A DNA stretch of 43,883 bases from an uncultured Eubacterium sp. (GCA_905236225.1 CAJOPM010000045.1:1-43883); one strand, 5' to 3'; shown: positions 55 to 42,830, counted from the first letter of the stretch. The notes: a model not told the origin generated them from the sequence alone. Numbers and translations are program-made.

Positions 55-78
55 ATGAAATCAATATTTTACCGCAGT

Positions 79-108
79 GTAAGCAATCCCTCGCTTCAAA
101 AGAGCGAG
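79..108 (+). repeat. Short copy of an IS200/IS605-like hairpin repeat
   Basis: GTAAGCAATCCCTCGCTTCAAAAG (79-102) matches 42679-42702 at 23/24 nt; forms a CTCGCT/AGCGAG stem. Confidence 0.65.
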
Positions 109-144
109 TCTTGACGTCTGAGATATAAAAATAAGACTTATTTG

Positions 145-173
145 ACAGCGCCCCATGTAAAATGGGGCGCTGT
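145..173 (+). terminator. GC-rich hairpin, possible terminator of the upstream gene
   Basis: ACAGCGCCCCAT-gtaaa-ATGGGGCGCTGT, a perfect 12-bp stem, but no clear U-tract. Confidence 0.55.
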
Positions 174-201
174 TGCACTGTTAAATTAAAATAGATATAA
201 T
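173..201 (+). promoter_or_regulatory. sigma-A promoter of the transglutaminase/PilC/PilT operon
   Basis: TTGCAC (173-178), 17-nt spacer, TATAAT (196-201). Confidence 0.7.
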
Positions 202-208
202 GTTAGAT

Positions 209-1204
209 ATGATTAACTCTAAATATTTTCGCAAACAAAATACATATAGTCTTATTATTTGCGTTACAGTTATTATTGCGTTATGTCTTATATTTGGCGC
301 CGGATGTAGCATAGGGACAGATGATGAAGATATAGAGGTTTCTGATTTAGAAGCCGATGATCAAGTAGGCATTATGGAATATTCCGGTGACAAAGAGGGT
401 GAATATGTAACTCCCGAATTTAATGATTCAGCCTTTAATGATGAAAAGGCTGATGATTATGGACAAGTCAGATTAGATATTTCATCTGTTAATCTAGGGT
501 ATTTCGGCATTGAAGTTTCAAGCGACAATTCACTTAAACTTCAGGTTATAAAGGGCGATGATACATATACCTACGATATCAATTCTGAAATGAATCCCGA
601 AATTATACCGCTTAATATGGGCAATGGCAAGTATGAGATCAAAGTTATGGAAGCAATCGGCGAGCAGAAGTATGCAAAGCTTTGGTCTGATACTATAAAT
701 GTGGAGCTTGATACAAAATATAGCGCTTTTTTAAGACCCAGCAAGATGGTAAATTACAATCAGGACTCACAGTGCGTTAAGCTTGGGCAAGAGATAGCGA
801 ATGCATCGGATAGTGATTTGGAGCTGGTTTCGAATGCTTATGAATATCTTTGCGAGGCTATATCCTATGACAATAACAAAGCGGCATCCGTGACAAGCGG
901 ATATATACCCGATCCGGATGCGACACTTGAGGAAAGAAAGGGGATATGCTTTGATTATGCGGCGCTTTCGGCTGCAATATTTAGAAGTCAGGGCATACCT
1001 TGTCAGTTGATTACAGGTTACGTGACAAGTGAAAATGTATATCATGCATGGAACAAGGTTTATATTAAATCAGAAGGATGGGTTACGGTAGAGATATCTG
1101 CCGATGCTAATGACTGGCAGAGAATAGATATTACATTTGCTGCCAGTGGAATAGATGAAGAATTAGGAGAAGATAACGAGTATACACAGCTTTATGTGTA
1201 TTGA
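209..1204 (+). CDS. Transglutaminase-like domain lipoprotein (ORF track start 200; ATG 209 preferred)
   Basis: N-terminal hydrophobic stretch ending in lipobox-like GAG-C; acidic linker; transglutaminase-like core motifs GICFDYA (Cys), HAWN (His) and RIDIT (Asp). Confidence 0.85.
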   Translation: MINSKYFRKQNTYSLIICVTVIIALCLIFGAGCSIGTDDEDIEVSDLEADDQVGIMEYSGDKEGEYVTPEFNDSAFNDEKADDYGQVRLDISSVNLGYFGIEVSSDNSLKLQVIKGDDTYTYDINSEMNPEIIPLNMGNGKYEIKVMEAIGEQKYAKLWSDTINVELDTKYSAFLRPSKMVNYNQDSQCVKLGQEIANASDSDLELVSNAYEYLCEAISYDNNKAASVTSGYIPDPDATLEERKGICFDYAALSAAIFRSQGIPCQLITGYVTSENVYHAWNKVYIKSEGWVTVEISADANDWQRIDITFAASGIDEELGEDNEYTQLYVY

Positions 1205-1215
1205 TGGAGGTTTAT

Positions 1216-2259
1216 ATGAGCAATAAGAGAATGTCAGATGCGGCAGTTAGCGTATTTTGCCGTAATATGGCTATGATGTTATCGGGCGGCATCAGTCCGG
1301 TCGAAGCGGTTCATCTTCTAGGTGAAGACTCAGTAGAAGAAGGGTTTCAAGAGAAGATGAAAACCTTACAAGAGAAGCTGATTTTAGGAGAAGGATTTGC
1401 CGTAGCTATTGATAGTAGCGCTATTGTGCCTCCTTATGCCTGCGAGATGATTAAGATAGGTGAACAATCAGGTAGAACAGAGAACGTTTTATATTCACTT
1501 TCGGATTATTATGAGAATAGATTTGAATTGCAGCAAAAGTTCAAATCTGCAGTATTTTACCCAATGATATTACTTATAGTGATGTGCGCTGTCCTTGCAC
1601 TTATGGTGTTTAAGATTCTGCCTGTATTTATACAGGTATATGAAAGTTTATCAGGCTCCATACTTGCATCGTCATATGCATATGTTAAGGTTTCAATGGT
1701 AATTGCAATTATTGCACTTATAATTACGGCTATTTGCTGCTTTATGATTATTTTTATCATGATTAGATATAAAAGTGAAAAAGGCCGAAAACAACTTATA
1801 AAAATGCTTGAAAAAATTAAATTTAGCAAAAAAGCTATGAGAAAGTCGGGAGTGCTGCAGCTTTTAGAATCTCTCAGACTCCTTATGGCAAGCGGAATGA
1901 ATACCGATCAGGCAATGGAAATTGCATCTGATGCAGTAGATAATGATAGTGTAAAAAAGGATGCAAAATTAGCCCTTGATATGATGAGAGAGGGCAAGAG
2001 CCTTTCACAGGCAATATATGATACAAACATTTTAGAACCCCTTTATGCAAGAATGCTTATAAGTGCTTCGCATACGGGTAAACTTGATTCTACACTTGAT
2101 AGTGTAACTGAAATTACCAATAATGATATGCAAAATGAAATAGGAATGCTAGTAGGCACAGTTGAACCGATTCTTACGGGATTTTTAACCGTGGCAATCG
2201 GAATATGCTTAATAAGCGCCATGCTTCCACTTACAGGAATAATTGCCTCAATGGGCTGA
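1216..2259 (+). CDS. Type II secretion F / PilC-family inner-membrane platform protein
   Basis: Two T2SSF-like repeats (FCRNMAMMLSGG...GEQSG...YPMIL; LMASGM...TGKLD...VEP) with TM helices; GGAGG RBS before ATG 1216. Confidence 0.9.
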   Translation: MSNKRMSDAAVSVFCRNMAMMLSGGISPVEAVHLLGEDSVEEGFQEKMKTLQEKLILGEGFAVAIDSSAIVPPYACEMIKIGEQSGRTENVLYSLSDYYENRFELQQKFKSAVFYPMILLIVMCAVLALMVFKILPVFIQVYESLSGSILASSYAYVKVSMVIAIIALIITAICCFMIIFIMIRYKSEKGRKQLIKMLEKIKFSKKAMRKSGVLQLLESLRLLMASGMNTDQAMEIASDAVDNDSVKKDAKLALDMMREGKSLSQAIYDTNILEPLYARMLISASHTGKLDSTLDSVTEITNNDMQNEIGMLVGTVEPILTGFLTVAIGICLISAMLPLTGIIASMG

Positions 2260-2270
2260 TAGGAAATATT

Positions 2271-2606
2271 ATGTATCATGAAAAACCAAAACATCACAAA
2301 GGAATAATAATAGTAATTTGCTTCTTGGCCGCTGTAGCTGCTGCCATAATCATTATTTTGGGTTGCAGAGCAATATATAATAATATTCTTTACAGCCAGA
2401 CGCAGCAAATAAAAGAAACTGTTATAAAAGACTGCGTTCAGTGTTATTGCATTGAAGGTGTATATCCTTCTAATTTAGAGTACTTAGAAGATAATTACGG
2501 TTTAATAATTAATCATGACAAATTTATTGTTTCGTATGAGGCGTTTTCGTCAAATGTACTTCCGAGTGTTAAAGTACTTGTAAGAGGAGAGGAGTCAGAT
2601 GATTAG
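2271..2606 (+). CDS. Small pilin-like protein with one N-terminal TM helix
   Basis: Basic leader ending in G, hydrophobic helix, then CYCIEGVYPSNLEYL (pseudopilin-like 'GxYPxxLxxL'). ATG 2271 preferred over track start 2205. Confidence 0.65.
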   Translation: MYHEKPKHHKGIIIVICFLAAVAAAIIIILGCRAIYNNILYSQTQQIKETVIKDCVQCYCIEGVYPSNLEYLEDNYGLIINHDKFIVSYEAFSSNVLPSVKVLVRGEESDD

Positions 2607-3063
2607 AGGCAAATCTAATAATATAAGCTCATCTATGATAGTAATTTTATATGCCTTTTTAATAGCAGCTCTTCTTATAGCAATGCTTTGCGCAGGAAGA
2701 CTTTTTAGGAATTTTGTTGAGTCGGATCATATCAACGAGAATAAAAGGGCAACTATATCTTATATTGAAAGCAAAGTCATAAGTCTTGACAGTAAGGATT
2801 TTATTAGTGTAAATGAAGGAAAATACTCACAGGTTTTAATCCTAAAAGAGAGTATGTCCGATTATGAGACAAGGATTTTTTTGTACGACGATAAGCTGCT
2901 TGAGGAGTTTGCAAAAAGCGGCAGTGATATCGATTTGGATAATTGTTATGAAATCAGCGATGCAAGCAGCTTGGATTTTTATTTGGACAAAGAATATAAT
3001 CTGCTTAAAATTGAAATAGATGATGAGGGCGGATACGTTCATATCAGAAGCAAGGTGGTGTAA
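2599..3063 (+). CDS. DUF4860-like pilin-like protein
   Basis: N-terminal TM, then RATISYIESKV...YETRIFLYDDKLLE pattern recalled for DUF4860; overlaps the upstream stop; GGAG RBS. Confidence 0.65.
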   Translation: MIRGKSNNISSSMIVILYAFLIAALLIAMLCAGRLFRNFVESDHINENKRATISYIESKVISLDSKDFISVNEGKYSQVLILKESMSDYETRIFLYDDKLLEEFAKSGSDIDLDNCYEISDASSLDFYLDKEYNLLKIEIDDEGGYVHIRSKVV

Positions 3064-3068
3064 ACGAT

Positions 3069-3512
3069 ATGAGAAAATACAAAAATAACAGCCCTATATT
3101 TATGGCGGCCTTGCAGCTTATTATTTTAATCGTCATTTTTTTGCTTGTAATGATTTTTTTGCTAAAAGCTTTCTCAGGGGCTATATCTACCAGTAAAGAA
3201 TCAAGCAGATTACAAAATTCGGTAGATATATGTCGTAATGCGGCTGAAATATTTGCAGCAACAGATTCTATTGAAGATATCCATAATATGTTAGATGCAG
3301 AGCATTTATCTGAAGATGAAGCTATTTATTATAATAATGACTGGCAGATATGCAGCGCAGATAAGGCATCTTATATATTGAAAATTAATACAGCTACACA
3401 AGATTCTGCTGCGGGAAAGCTAATAAGTGCAAATATTGCGCTAAGTAATGTTGATGATGAAATAATATATGAACTTAATACAGAAAAATATGTTGGAGAA
3501 GCCGATGAATAA
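3069..3512 (+). CDS. Pilin-like protein (N-terminal TM)
   Basis: Basic leader plus ~22-aa hydrophobic helix (LQLIILIVIFLLVMIFLL) and a small soluble domain; operon context. Confidence 0.55.
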   Translation: MRKYKNNSPIFMAALQLIILIVIFLLVMIFLLKAFSGAISTSKESSRLQNSVDICRNAAEIFAATDSIEDIHNMLDAEHLSEDEAIYYNNDWQICSADKASYILKINTATQDSAAGKLISANIALSNVDDEIIYELNTEKYVGEADE

Positions 3513-3918
3513 CAATAAATTAAGGCTGGGCAGTATCAGTATATTATTTACAGTTATAATAATATGTACGATCCTGATTACGATTGCGGCGCTTTCATAT
3601 GCCAAGGCTGATTATAAAGAAAGCAAAGCATATGCAACTCATATTACTACAATGTATGAGACAGAGAGCTTAGGACAAAACTGGTTGGCTATGATTTCAG
3701 GCATCATTTGCGATGAACAAAAAAATATAGATGATGTAGCTGATGTTGATAACACAAAAGTAGATGGCAATATAATCTCTACATCAATTGAACATCAAGG
3801 TCAAAGACTTGATATAGAATTAAAAATAGATTCTAAAGGTAATTATTCAATTATAAAATGGAATAATTATACAACGTGGGTTGAAGATACATCTGTTAAT
3901 TTGTGGCAGGAGGAGTAG
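3505..3918 (+). CDS. Pilin-like protein (N-terminal TM)
   Basis: MNNNKLRLG|SISILFTVIIIC... leader, Gly and hydrophobic helix; GGAG RBS before ATG 3505 (track start 3469). Confidence 0.55.
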   Translation: MNNNKLRLGSISILFTVIIICTILITIAALSYAKADYKESKAYATHITTMYETESLGQNWLAMISGIICDEQKNIDDVADVDNTKVDGNIISTSIEHQGQRLDIELKIDSKGNYSIIKWNNYTTWVEDTSVNLWQEE

Positions 3919-5004
3919 ATGGAAGAGAATAATCAATTAGTAAATATGCTAAAAAGTGCTGTAAATGTCAATGCATCTGATATTTTTATCGTTGCCGGAA
4001 GATGTACAATCTTTAAAGTTAACGGCGCTCAAATTGAACATAACAAAGATAAAGTATTAATGCCGGAAGATACAAACAAGCTTGTTAATGAGATTTATCA
4101 AGAAGCGCATAGAGACGTTTTAAGGATAAGCAAACCGGATGCCGATGATGATTTTTCATTTGCTTTAAACTCAGTCGGAAGATTTAGAGTAAATATATTT
4201 CATCAAAGAGGCTCCCTTGCTGCAGTTATCAGGGTTATAAAATTTGGCTTGCCATCGGCTAAAGAGATGAGAATTCCGGATAAAATAATGGAAATAGCCA
4301 ATTTTAAAAAGGGAATTGTACTTGTTACAGGACCGGCGGGATCGGGCAAGTCGACTACTCTTGCTTGTATACTTAATAAAATCAATCAGTCAAGAAGCGG
4401 CCACATACTTACGCTTGAAGATCCGGTTGAATTTATTCATAGGCACAACAAATGTATAGTAAGTCAAAGAGAAATATTTACGGATTGTCCAAGTTACATA
4501 TCGGCACTTAGAAGTGCTCTTAGAGAGAGCCCGGATGTGATTTTGCTTGGGGAAATGAGAGATCATGAGACTATGGATGTTGCAATGACGGCGGCTGAGA
4601 CGGGACAGCTTTTGTTTAGTACTCTTCACACAACCGGAGCGGCAAATACGGTCGATAGAATAATTGATGAATTTCCGGCAAACCAGCAATCACAGGTTAG
4701 ATTGCAGCTTTCAATGGTGCTTCAGGCGGTTATAAGTCAGCAGCTTGTACCGTCTGTTGATGGCAAATTGGTGCCGGCATTTGAAATTATGTTTATGAAT
4801 ATGGCAATCAGAAACCTGATAAGAGAAAGTAAGACACATCAGATAGATGCGGCAATATCAAGTGGGGCATCAGAGGGTATGAAAACAATGGATACCTCGC
4901 TACTCGAGCTGTATAAAGAAGGAATTATTACAAAAGAGACTGTTCTTACAAGGTGTCATGATTTTGATATTATGCAAAAAAAGCTGGAGATACTTAATAG
5001 ATAA
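3919..5004 (+). CDS. pilT: PilT/PilU-family type IV pilus ATPase
   Basis: Walker A GPAGSGKSTT, Asp box LEDPVE, Walker B ALRESPDVILLGEMRD, His box STLH and the PilT-diagnostic AIRNLIRE motif. Confidence 0.92.
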   Translation: MEENNQLVNMLKSAVNVNASDIFIVAGRCTIFKVNGAQIEHNKDKVLMPEDTNKLVNEIYQEAHRDVLRISKPDADDDFSFALNSVGRFRVNIFHQRGSLAAVIRVIKFGLPSAKEMRIPDKIMEIANFKKGIVLVTGPAGSGKSTTLACILNKINQSRSGHILTLEDPVEFIHRHNKCIVSQREIFTDCPSYISALRSALRESPDVILLGEMRDHETMDVAMTAAETGQLLFSTLHTTGAANTVDRIIDEFPANQQSQVRLQLSMVLQAVISQQLVPSVDGKLVPAFEIMFMNMAIRNLIRESKTHQIDAAISSGASEGMKTMDTSLLELYKEGIITKETVLTRCHDFDIMQKKLEILNR

Positions 5005-42678: not shown

Positions 42679-42830
42679 GTAAGCAATCCCCCGCTTCAAA
42701 AGCGTTAGCTTTAAGCGGGGGTTGAAGCTTACTAGTGTCAGGAGGTGTGAAAGCCCCCTTTTGAGACGGAGCACGAAGTGTTTCTGTGTTTATGAGGAAG
42801 AAGCGAAGCGGACCCTGAATGTCCGCTTTA
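42679..42830 (+). ncRNA. Putative structured RNA / non-autonomous IS200/IS605-derived end (omega-RNA-like)
   Basis: Four consecutive stems at 42679-42732, 42735-42767, 42768-42784 and 42806-42828; 5' end repeated at 79-102. Family assignment and strand are inferred. Confidence 0.5.

What the first reader, a model, noticed from the sequence alone, without database searches (positions are those of the whole stretch)
209..5004. Minimal PilT-only type-IV-filament-like operon with a transglutaminase-like lipoprotein and four non-canonical pilin-like genes
Seen: seven tightly packed or overlapping genes under one sigma-A promoter. They encode a lipoprotein with an intact Cys-His-Asp transglutaminase-like triad, a PilC/GspF platform, four 110-155 aa proteins with a short basic leader and one hydrophobic helix, and an ATPase with the AIRNLIRE motif. 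Established: type IV filament systems need a PilB/GspE/ComGA extension ATPase and a prepilin peptidase, and AIRNLIRE marks PilT retraction ATPases. Neither PilB nor PilD, nor PilMNO, is in this operon. Inference: this may be a distinct machine in which one PilT-clade motor works with unprocessed pseudopilins, and the surface enzyme cross-links or cleaves subunits or wall proteins. I recall DUF4860 neighbourhoods of this kind in Clostridia but know of no functional characterisation.
Basis: partly seen in the sequence, partly recalled or inferred. Interest (0 to 1): 0.78.

Follow-up and report, generated by a model that had tools for sequence, protein, structure and literature searches.

The report
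Shaft-less pilus tip with retraction motor
These seven genes form a conserved operon of gut Clostridia that keeps a pilus platform, a retraction-type motor, four tip-pilin relatives and a surface enzyme, and it persists in genomes with no pilus-assembly motor or pilin-processing enzyme, so it likely works as a membrane-anchored machine that builds no long pilus.

Summary
Observation confirmed: seven packed genes (transglutaminase-like lipoprotein, PilC, four small proteins, PilT); the promoter is plausible only. This genome also carries a separate ordinary type IVa pilus, but the operon does not need one. Of 35 operon genomes, 16 lack PilB and 14 lack both PilB and a PilD-type peptidase; the closed Blautia producta genome lacks PilB too. 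Ten genome pairs show purifying selection. The small proteins are pilins: two AlphaFold models match pilin folds. All four align with prepilins of a complete transglutaminase-pilB-pilT-pilC pilus locus (G298), the likely ancestor, whose probable major pilin has no counterpart here. Cleavage signals are mostly lost (s1: 0 of 112). Best reading (0.4): an uncleaved four-subunit tip complex on PilC, moved by PilT, acting with the enzyme on wall-bound proteins. Against 'PilT-only': some lineages lost pilT, and one genome has no traffic ATPase. The function is untested and no complex model could be run. The scan found this operon before on other genomes; I found no paper on it.

The parts
144..174 (+). 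13-bp hairpin, likely the terminator of the upstream L,D-transpeptidase-like gene (ends at 54)
   Evidence: RNAfold -26.1 kcal/mol; upstream genes on overlapping contig C128
173..201 (+). Candidate sigma-A promoter TTGCAC-N17-TATAAT; ATG 209 lies 7 nt after the -10 with no Shine-Dalgarno (possible leaderless mRNA)
   Evidence: Read from sequence; same spacing in G001 and G002; not listed by the promoter scan
209..1204 (+). tgl: transglutaminase-like predicted lipoprotein (lipobox Cys codon 305-307; Cys/His/Asp codons at 947, 1043, 1127)
   Evidence: PF01841 E 5.8e-22; triad invariant in 23 of 23, motif found in 95 of 98; PDB relatives 3isr, 6g49, 4xz7
1216..2259 (+). PilC/GspF-family platform, 347 aa, lacking the ~50-aa N-domain
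   Evidence: PF00482 two stretches; matches GspF model from position 57 and ComGB model from position 6; N-domain motif in 2 of 112 operon PilCs; operon PilCs on one side of a branch, SH-aLRT 99
2271..2606 (+). s1: small pilin-fold protein with no class III signal; matches the second (not the first) pilin of complete tgl-T4aP loci
   Evidence: AF2 pLDDT 89; PilA4 6xxd Z 8.7, rmsd 3.3, 101 aligned; EpsG Z 6.5; hhalign 94% to second pilin vs 15.6% to first; strict signal in 0 of 112
2599..3063 (+). s2: DUF4860, a GspJ/PilW-type minor pilin
   Evidence: AF2 pLDDT 92; TTHA1219 Z 10.0, EpsJ 9.4, XcpW 9.3, GspJ 9.3; hhalign 98.6% to a G298 prepilin
3069..3512 (+). s3: pilin, likely PilV/GspI-type; G-1 lost and E5 replaced by Gln here
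   Evidence: 13 of 34 family members match N_methyl; profile hits type IV pilins in PDB; hhalign 95.9%; PilV/GspI label inferred from gene position, not from a fold
3505..3918 (+). s4: likely PilX/GspK-type cap pilin (invariant Gly, no Glu5)
   Evidence: G9 invariant in 34 of 34; hhalign 95.6% to the N-terminus of the 861-aa G298 protein; no Pfam or PDB sequence match; label inferred
3919..5004 (+). PilT-clade ATPase with intact Walker A/B and His box and AIRNLIRE (4804-4827); clade-specific H23F and T140A
   Evidence: TIGR01420 403 bits; Aquifex PilT E 3e-102 vs PilB ~1e-24; catalytic residues in 43 of 43; trees

Best explanation
The operon is a reduced descendant of a type IVa pilus locus that kept the platform, PilT, four pilin relatives and the transglutaminase-like enzyme, and it likely works as a shaft-less tip complex that stays in the membrane and is moved by PilT to act on wall-bound proteins. 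Shown: the gene set; independence from PilB, PilD and PilM; pilin folds (s1, s2) or pilin homology (s3, s4); loss of cleavage signals; intact catalytic residues; purifying selection. Inferred: s1-s4 assemble one each into a priming complex on PilC; their uncleaved basic N-termini keep them from leaving the membrane, so no long fibre forms; PilT cycles drive short strokes or rotation of this stub; the lipoprotein next to it cuts or cross-links surface proteins (adhesins, sortase- or SipW-handled fibres) or the wall, under control of SARP-type or ECF regulators. In lineages that lost pilT the stub would work passively or borrow another PilT.
For: Independence: no PilB in 16 of 35 operon genomes (14 of these at least 94% complete); PilB in 15 of 23 operon genomes vs 135 of 277 others in the class sample, Fisher p 0.19; neither PilB nor PilD N-domain in 14 of 35; no full PilM in 17 of 18 PilB-less genomes; no class III prepilin in 14 of 17 PilB-less genomes, and only s3 itself in the other three. 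B. producta DSM 2950 (closed) has only the operon PilT plus a Tad-type ATPase; C. hongkongensis (draft) and G028 have the operon PilT as sole traffic ATPase and no A24 peptidase. No shaft: in the complete locus of G298/G122 (tgl-pilB-pilT-pilC-pilin1-pilin2-PilW-pilM...-PilV-PilX) s1-s4 match pilin2 and the three downstream prepilins in the same order (94-99%), while pilin1 matches s1 at only 15.6%. Strict signal in s1 0 of 112, s2 3 of 111, s3 14 of 110, s4 0 of 108; basic residues precede the helices. Glu5 and leader removal matter for polymerisation, and tip complexes are capped by a Glu5-less pilin (PMC10191384, passages). Enzyme link: the tgl subfamily is in 22 of 23 operon genomes vs 20 of 278 others, 19 of those 20 with PilB. 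Context within 2 kb: BTAD regulator 20 of 111 loci, ECF sigma 18 of 111, sortase abutting in 6 of 111; in 3 of 5 genomes tested the adjacent BTAD gene is the only one. dN/dS at most 0.26 in 57 of 59 computable gene pairs.
Against: The s1 model's closest solved folds are major pilins (PilA4, EpsG, PulG), and s1 is the best conserved of the four, so it could be a shaft subunit. Calling pilin1 of G298 the major pilin rests on its position and divergence only. No complex model exists. The surface-protein link is weak: 88 of 111 loci have none of BTAD, sortase, SipW or TasA nearby, and this window has none. PilT is dispensable in some lineages. Most PilB-less genomes have a Tad-type ATPase, and 32 of 35 have some A24 peptidase. 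Most genomes are drafts, and kin are not independent.
Confidence: 0.4

Rival explanations
1. s1 is a true major pilin that polymerises, uncleaved, into a short endopilus capped by s2-s4, and this PilT extends as well as retracts it, like a Com pilus run by a PilT-clade motor.
For: s1 fold is closest to major pilins and pseudopilins. The gene set mirrors Com (ATPase, N-domain-less platform, small pilins; PMC10790770 and PMC10191384 passages). One PilT can adopt both extension-type and retraction-type conformations (PMC6858323 passages). The leaderless clade has fixed changes H23F (97%) and T140A (100%).
Against: s1 has no strict class III signal in 112 of 112 copies and keeps a basic N-terminus. 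It matches the second, not the first, pilin of the ancestral-type locus. PilT-less copies stay under selection.
Confidence: 0.25
2. The operon is an accessory that works with another filament system in trans (alternative tip, or retraction module, for T4aP or Tad pili).
For: This genome has a full T4aP and a Tad-type ATPase; 19 of 35 have PilB and most of the rest a Tad-type ATPase; PilT-less copies often have an orphan PilT elsewhere (4 of 5).
Against: G028, G032 and C. hongkongensis have no other traffic ATPase; no enrichment for PilB (p 0.19); own platform clade.
Confidence: 0.13
3. It is a minimal DNA-uptake machine that pulls DNA through the wall for natural transformation.
For: Com-like simplicity; an MBL-fold gene (ComEC-like by recall) follows s4 in G037; orphan PilTs sit beside a ChlI/comM-type gene in PilT-less lineages.
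Against: Head domains are net acidic in 95-98% of 108-112 copies of each pilin. No competence gene recurs among the 22 commonest neighbour clusters of 111 loci. The orphan PilTs are ordinary T4aP-type.
Confidence: 0.12
4. It is a decaying relic of a lost pilus.
For: Eroded leaders; loss of pilT in several lineages; diverged copy in G237.
Against: Low dN/dS in all ten pairs, including PilB-less and PilT-less ones; at least 596 matching stretches in GTDB; 51 of 63 uncut loci have the exact seven-gene order.
Confidence: 0.03

Closest known systems
Type IVa pilus of Clostridia (pilB-pilT-pilC-pilins-pilMNO-pilD), especially the tgl-headed loci of G298/G122
   Same: PilC, PilT, four homologous pilins in the same order and the same transglutaminase subfamily; their PilT is sister to the pilT-first operon variant (SH-aLRT 99) and their PilC is the nearest canonical one
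   Different: No PilB, PilMNO, PilD or probable major pilin; PilC N-domain and class III signals mostly lost
Com (T4dP) competence pilus, ComGA-GG plus ComC
   Same: Only an ATPase and a platform at the membrane; platform without N-domain; small pilins; monoderm hosts
   Different: The motor is PilT-clade, not ComGA (403 bits vs 131); four pilins, not five; no peptidase needed; acidic heads; extra enzyme
T2SS GspH/I/J/K (PilHIJK, FimU-PilVWX) minor-pilin tip complex
   Same: s2 has the GspJ/XcpW fold; s3 keeps Glu5 in most copies; s4 has none, like the cap subunit
   Different: No GspE, GspL/M, secretin or peptidase in the operon; s1 resembles major-type folds rather than GspH/FimU in the listed rows (inconclusive)
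Tad (T4cP) pilus with bifunctional CpaF
   Same: A single ATPase drives the system (PMC6668835 passage on PilT-independent retraction; PMC11300603 search listing only)
   Different: Different ATPase clade; one two-domain PilC instead of TadB/TadC; no Flp pilin or TadV
Bacterial transglutaminase-like Cys proteins (PDB 3isr, 6g49, 4xz7; LapG as a functional analogy, recalled)
   Same: Cys-His-Asp core
   Different: Lipoprotein with an uncharacterised N-terminal region, tied to pilus loci; activity and substrate unknown

Membership tests
Type IV filament superfamily (ancestry) | PilT/VirB11-family ATPase plus PilC/GspF platform | tested here: met
Type IV filament superfamily (ancestry) | Subunits with type IV pilin fold | tested here: met
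   s1 Z 8.7 and s2 Z 9-10 to pilins; s3 and s4 by profile homology only
Type IV filament superfamily (ancestry) | Forms a polymeric filament | not testable with these tools
   needs EM or proteomics
T4aP | PilB extension ATPase | tested here: not met
   none in 80 named loci; absent from 16 of 35 genomes
T4aP | Prepilin peptidase PilD and class III signals | tested here: not met
   PF06750 absent in 15 of 35; strict signal in 0/112, 3/111, 14/110, 0/108
T4aP | PilMNO alignment complex | tested here: not met
   PilM tested: full-type hit in 1 of 18 PilB-less genomes, three partial hits of 272-285 aa; PilN and PilO not searched genome-wide
T4aP | Major pilin | tested here: inconclusive
   s1 matches pilin2, not pilin1, of complete loci, but its fold is nearest to major pilins
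T4aP | PilT retraction-clade ATPase | tested here: met
   lost in some lineages
Com pilus | ComGA-type extension ATPase | tested here: not met
   ComGA model 131 bits (cut-off 300) vs PilT 403
Com pilus | Platform lacking the N-domain | tested here: met
Com pilus | Five processed pilins and ComC | tested here: not met
   four pilins
Com pilus | DNA uptake | not testable with these tools
   acidic heads argue against direct DNA binding
Tad pilus | CpaF ATPase, split TadB/TadC, Flp pilin | tested here: not met
   PilT-clade ATPase and a single two-domain platform
T2SS | GspE, GspL/M and secretin | tested here: not met
   no such ORFs in the operon; GspE model 124 bits vs cut-off 630
Minor-pilin tip complex | s2-s3-s4 bind each other as a heterotrimer | not tested
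Transglutaminase-like superfamily | Cys-His-Asp triad in a Transglut_core domain | tested here: met
Transglutaminase-like superfamily | Cross-linking or peptidase activity | not testable with these tools
   needs an assay

The most novel reading that the evidence does not exclude
A type IV filament machine that makes no filament: a pilus priming complex, freed from extension motor, peptidase and major pilin, repurposed as a PilT-driven membrane actuator for a surface protease or cross-linker in hundreds of gut Clostridia. If s1 does polymerise instead, it would be a filament built from uncleaved pilins by a 'retraction' ATPase, which is equally unprecedented in what I could search.
Probability: 0.55. 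Interest if true: 0.88.

Novelty: new variant of a known kind. Interest (0 to 1): 0.73.

Why it matters
Type IV filament models treat an extension ATPase and a prepilin peptidase as essential (PMC6668835 and PMC10191384, passages). This system lacks both in many genomes yet is under purifying selection, so it offers a natural test of two open questions: what fixes the direction of a PilT-family motor, and whether pilins can work without leader cleavage. It gives DUF4860 a fold (GspJ/PilW-like) and ties an unstudied transglutaminase-like lipoprotein to clostridial pilus loci. It is present in cultured gut commensals (B. producta DSM 2950, C. hongkongensis), where it can be tested without a second type IVa pilus.

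Tried and rejected
RNA evidence: no RNA holder was listed; no reads were laid. Sequence searches that gave nothing useful: s1, s2 and s4 profiles vs PDB sequences; s1 and s4 vs Pfam; Foldseek gave no E <= 0.001, though pilins ranked first; Atlas gave only unnamed clusters. 'pilB/pilD just upstream': rejected. 'All operon PilTs are one clade': rejected, AU p 0.004; 28 of 31 rows form the main clade and three pilT-first operons group with G298/G122. 'PilC N-domain binds PilB, so its loss follows PilB loss' (my idea): not supported; the PulF paper calls the domain dispensable with unknown partners. Both PilT trees and the PilC tree are quick trees with SH-aLRT only; careful runs did not finish. 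Rows dropped: partial L167; 17 rows (long branches, near duplicates, thinning); three of 80 named loci, as duplicates of loci already held. My Tyr-anchored position count for s1 was off by 1-2 residues and is not used. Literature: ten searches; those aimed at this system listed no description of it, and DUF4860 occurs in 0 papers. Denise et al.'s file s022.xlsx, which I take to be their full systems table, was too large to read and might list these loci as 'generic'. MacSyFinder was not available.
Full report
Observation. The window is the start of contig C45 of a 1.8-Mb, 94%-complete genome. Seven + strand genes run from 209 to 5004 with gaps of -8 to +11 nt and are followed by dGTPase, dnaG and rpoD (dnaG and rpoD named by eye). 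Pfam and NCBIfam give a transglutaminase core, a two-domain T2SSF platform, DUF4860 on the second small protein and a PilT above its cut-off. The Cys-His-Asp triad is invariant in 23 of 23 homologues, and AIRNLIRE is present. The promoter is TTGCAC-17-TATAAT. The scan did not list it and its hit count equals chance, but the spacing recurs in two same-genus loci. Contig C128 overlaps the window start by 87 bases and carries no pilus genes.

The host genome. It has an ordinary type IVa pilus elsewhere: pilM-N-O-B-T-C on C100, and pilD with canonical prepilins on C80 (pilM/N/O named by eye). Absence from the operon therefore proves nothing by itself, and I tested other genomes.

Distribution and independence. 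DUF4860 passed its cut-off in 13 of 41 relatives and in 23 of 300 class-wide genomes, giving 35 genomes including this one. In the 34 other loci, pilC-s1-s2 is always present and s3-s4 were detected in 33; pilT is adjacent in 30 and tgl in 22. Genome-wide, PilB is missing in 16 of 35, the PilD N-domain in 15, and both in 14. PilB is no commoner in operon genomes (15 of 23) than in the rest (135 of 277), p 0.19. Fourteen of 17 PilB-less genomes have no class III prepilin; the other three have only s3. A full-type PilM was found in 1 of 18. The closed B. producta DSM 2950 chromosome has only this PilT and a Tad-type ATPase. C. hongkongensis and G028 have this PilT as sole traffic ATPase and no A24 peptidase. 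Against a clean picture: most PilB-less genomes carry a Tad-type ATPase and 32 of 35 have some A24 peptidase; most are drafts; kin are not independent. dN/dS is at most 0.26 in 57 of 59 computable gene pairs from ten genome pairs (the others are 0.38 and 0.47, both s3; several dS values are near saturation), so this is not a relic.

The small proteins. The AlphaFold model of s2 (pLDDT 92) matches TTHA1219 (Z 10.0, rmsd 2.9, 109 aligned), EpsJ, XcpW and GspJ (Z 9.3-9.4), well above unrelated rows (at most 4.4). DUF4860 is thus a GspJ/PilW-type pilin. The s1 model (pLDDT 89) matches PilA4 (Z 8.7, rmsd 3.3, 101 aligned), with pilins in the top 14 rows; these Z values are modest for a helical protein. 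The s3 profile hits PDB pilins, and 13 of 34 members keep the N-methyl motif. s4 has an invariant Gly and no Glu5. Strict class III signals occur in 0 of 112 s1, 3 of 111 s2, 14 of 110 s3 and 0 of 108 s4; 13 of the 14 s3 cases lie outside the leaderless PilT subclade to which this window belongs. Heads are net acidic in 95-98% of copies.

Ancestry. The tgl subfamily occurs in 22 of 23 operon genomes and in 20 of 278 others, 19 of which have PilB. Where it is not adjacent it usually lies elsewhere in the genome. In G298, G122 and G336 it is the gene before pilB. G298 and G122 read tgl-pilB-pilT-pilC-pilin1-pilin2-PilW-like-pilM-(one gene)-PilV-like-PilX-like. s1, s2, s3 and s4 align with pilin2 and the three later prepilins of G298 at 94, 99, 96 and 96% probability, whereas pilin1 scores 15.6% with s1; the G122 pilin2 scores 61%. 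If pilin1 is the major pilin (inferred from position), the operon kept the minor set and lost the shaft subunit. All 29 operon PilCs fall on one side of a branch (99), nearest the G298/G122 PilCs. Operon PilTs form a main clade (40 of 43 rows; 28 of 31; support 99) apart from the hosts' T4aP PilTs, plus a pilT-first trio sister to G298/G122; a single clade is rejected. Catalytic residues are intact in 43 of 43, and the leaderless subclade has fixed H23F and T140A.

PilT is not always there. G037, G123, G318 and nine named loci lack an adjacent pilT; 4 of 5 tested have an ordinary PilT elsewhere. G237 (100% complete, about 20 contigs) has pilC-s1-s4 with no tgl, no traffic ATPase and no prepilin. 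'PilT-only' describes the main form, not all.

Context. Within 2 kb of 111 loci: a BTAD/SARP regulator in 20, an ECF sigma factor in 18 (one related group), an abutting sortase in 6, SipW-like in 2 and TasA-like in 1 (SipW and TasA seeds named by eye or by a weak Pfam hit). In three of five genomes tested the adjacent BTAD gene is the only one. This points weakly to surface-protein handling; 88 of 111 loci, and this window, lack BTAD, sortase, SipW and TasA genes.

Mechanism. Best reading (0.40): an uncleaved s1-s4 priming complex anchored on PilC, cycled by PilT, working with the lipoprotein on wall-bound proteins. Rivals: a short s1 fibre extended by a bifunctional PilT (0.25; McCallum et al., PMC6858323, passages: one PilT adopts both conformations); an accessory to another pilus (0.13); DNA uptake (0.12); a relic (0.03). 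Assembly, motion and enzyme activity are all inferred; no complex model and no expression data were obtained.

What is known. I read search passages only of PMC6668835, PMC3244431, PMC10790770, PMC10191384 and PMC6858323, and searched part of the supplements of the first. They define T4F as needing an extension ATPase and a peptidase, and the passages seen do not describe this system. Searches found no description. The scan's earlier agents reported the same operon type on five other windows. The whole-genome independence, the ancestral-type locus, the probable loss of the major pilin and the motorless variants were worked out here.

Verdict. Real, conserved and selected; a new variant within the type IV filament superfamily that fails membership of T4aP, Com, Tad and T2SS. 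Interest 0.73.

Noticed in passing
G000:C80:5143-14337: A 3064-aa protein with a class III-like prepilin N-terminus directly after pilD, followed by canonical minor pilins: a giant modular pilin in this genome's ordinary T4aP.
   Followed up: no
window 196-211: ATG 209 lies 7 nt after the -10 hexamer with no Shine-Dalgarno, so tgl may be translated from a leaderless mRNA; the same-genus loci have a normal ribosome-binding site.
   Followed up: partly
L205:1298-17900 and L206:1136-17892 (minus strand): Complete clostridial T4aP loci headed by the transglutaminase gene, with a PilM-PilN fusion (526 aa) and an 861-867 aa PilX-like protein.
   Followed up: yes
L223:8504-11266 (G237): Intact but diverged pilC-s1-s4 in a 100%-complete genome with no T2SSE-family ATPase, no tgl and no prepilin.
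   Followed up: partly
L061, L063, L187-L189: An orphan ordinary pilT sits next to a ChlI/comM-type gene (and a dprA-like gene in G123) in Lachnospiraceae, including genomes without PilB.
   Followed up: partly
L224:1474-3073 (B. producta): A lone canonical prepilin (273 aa) followed by a gene resembling the BTAD regulator by eye, in a genome with no PilB and only a TadV-sized peptidase.
   Followed up: no
L024:6195-7169, L025:5853-6818, L102:3082-4056, G000:C95:8213-9121: A secreted Lys/Thr-rich protein family lies near the operon in 8 of 111 loci; one member has a weak ATLF-family metallopeptidase match.
   Followed up: no
Atlas rows for window 2271-2606 and 3505-3918; L167; L174: Structural look-alike clusters are mostly Actinomycetota, so the system may extend beyond Clostridia. 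Two loci labelled Prevotella and Succinivibrio may be binning errors.
   Followed up: no
window 63-131 and 42679-42702: A short sequence near the window start recurs on at least six other contigs (blastn); possibly an intergenic repeat.
   Followed up: no
L102 and L167: The operon pilT appears split into two ORFs in these two loci; assembly error or decay not resolved.
   Followed up: no
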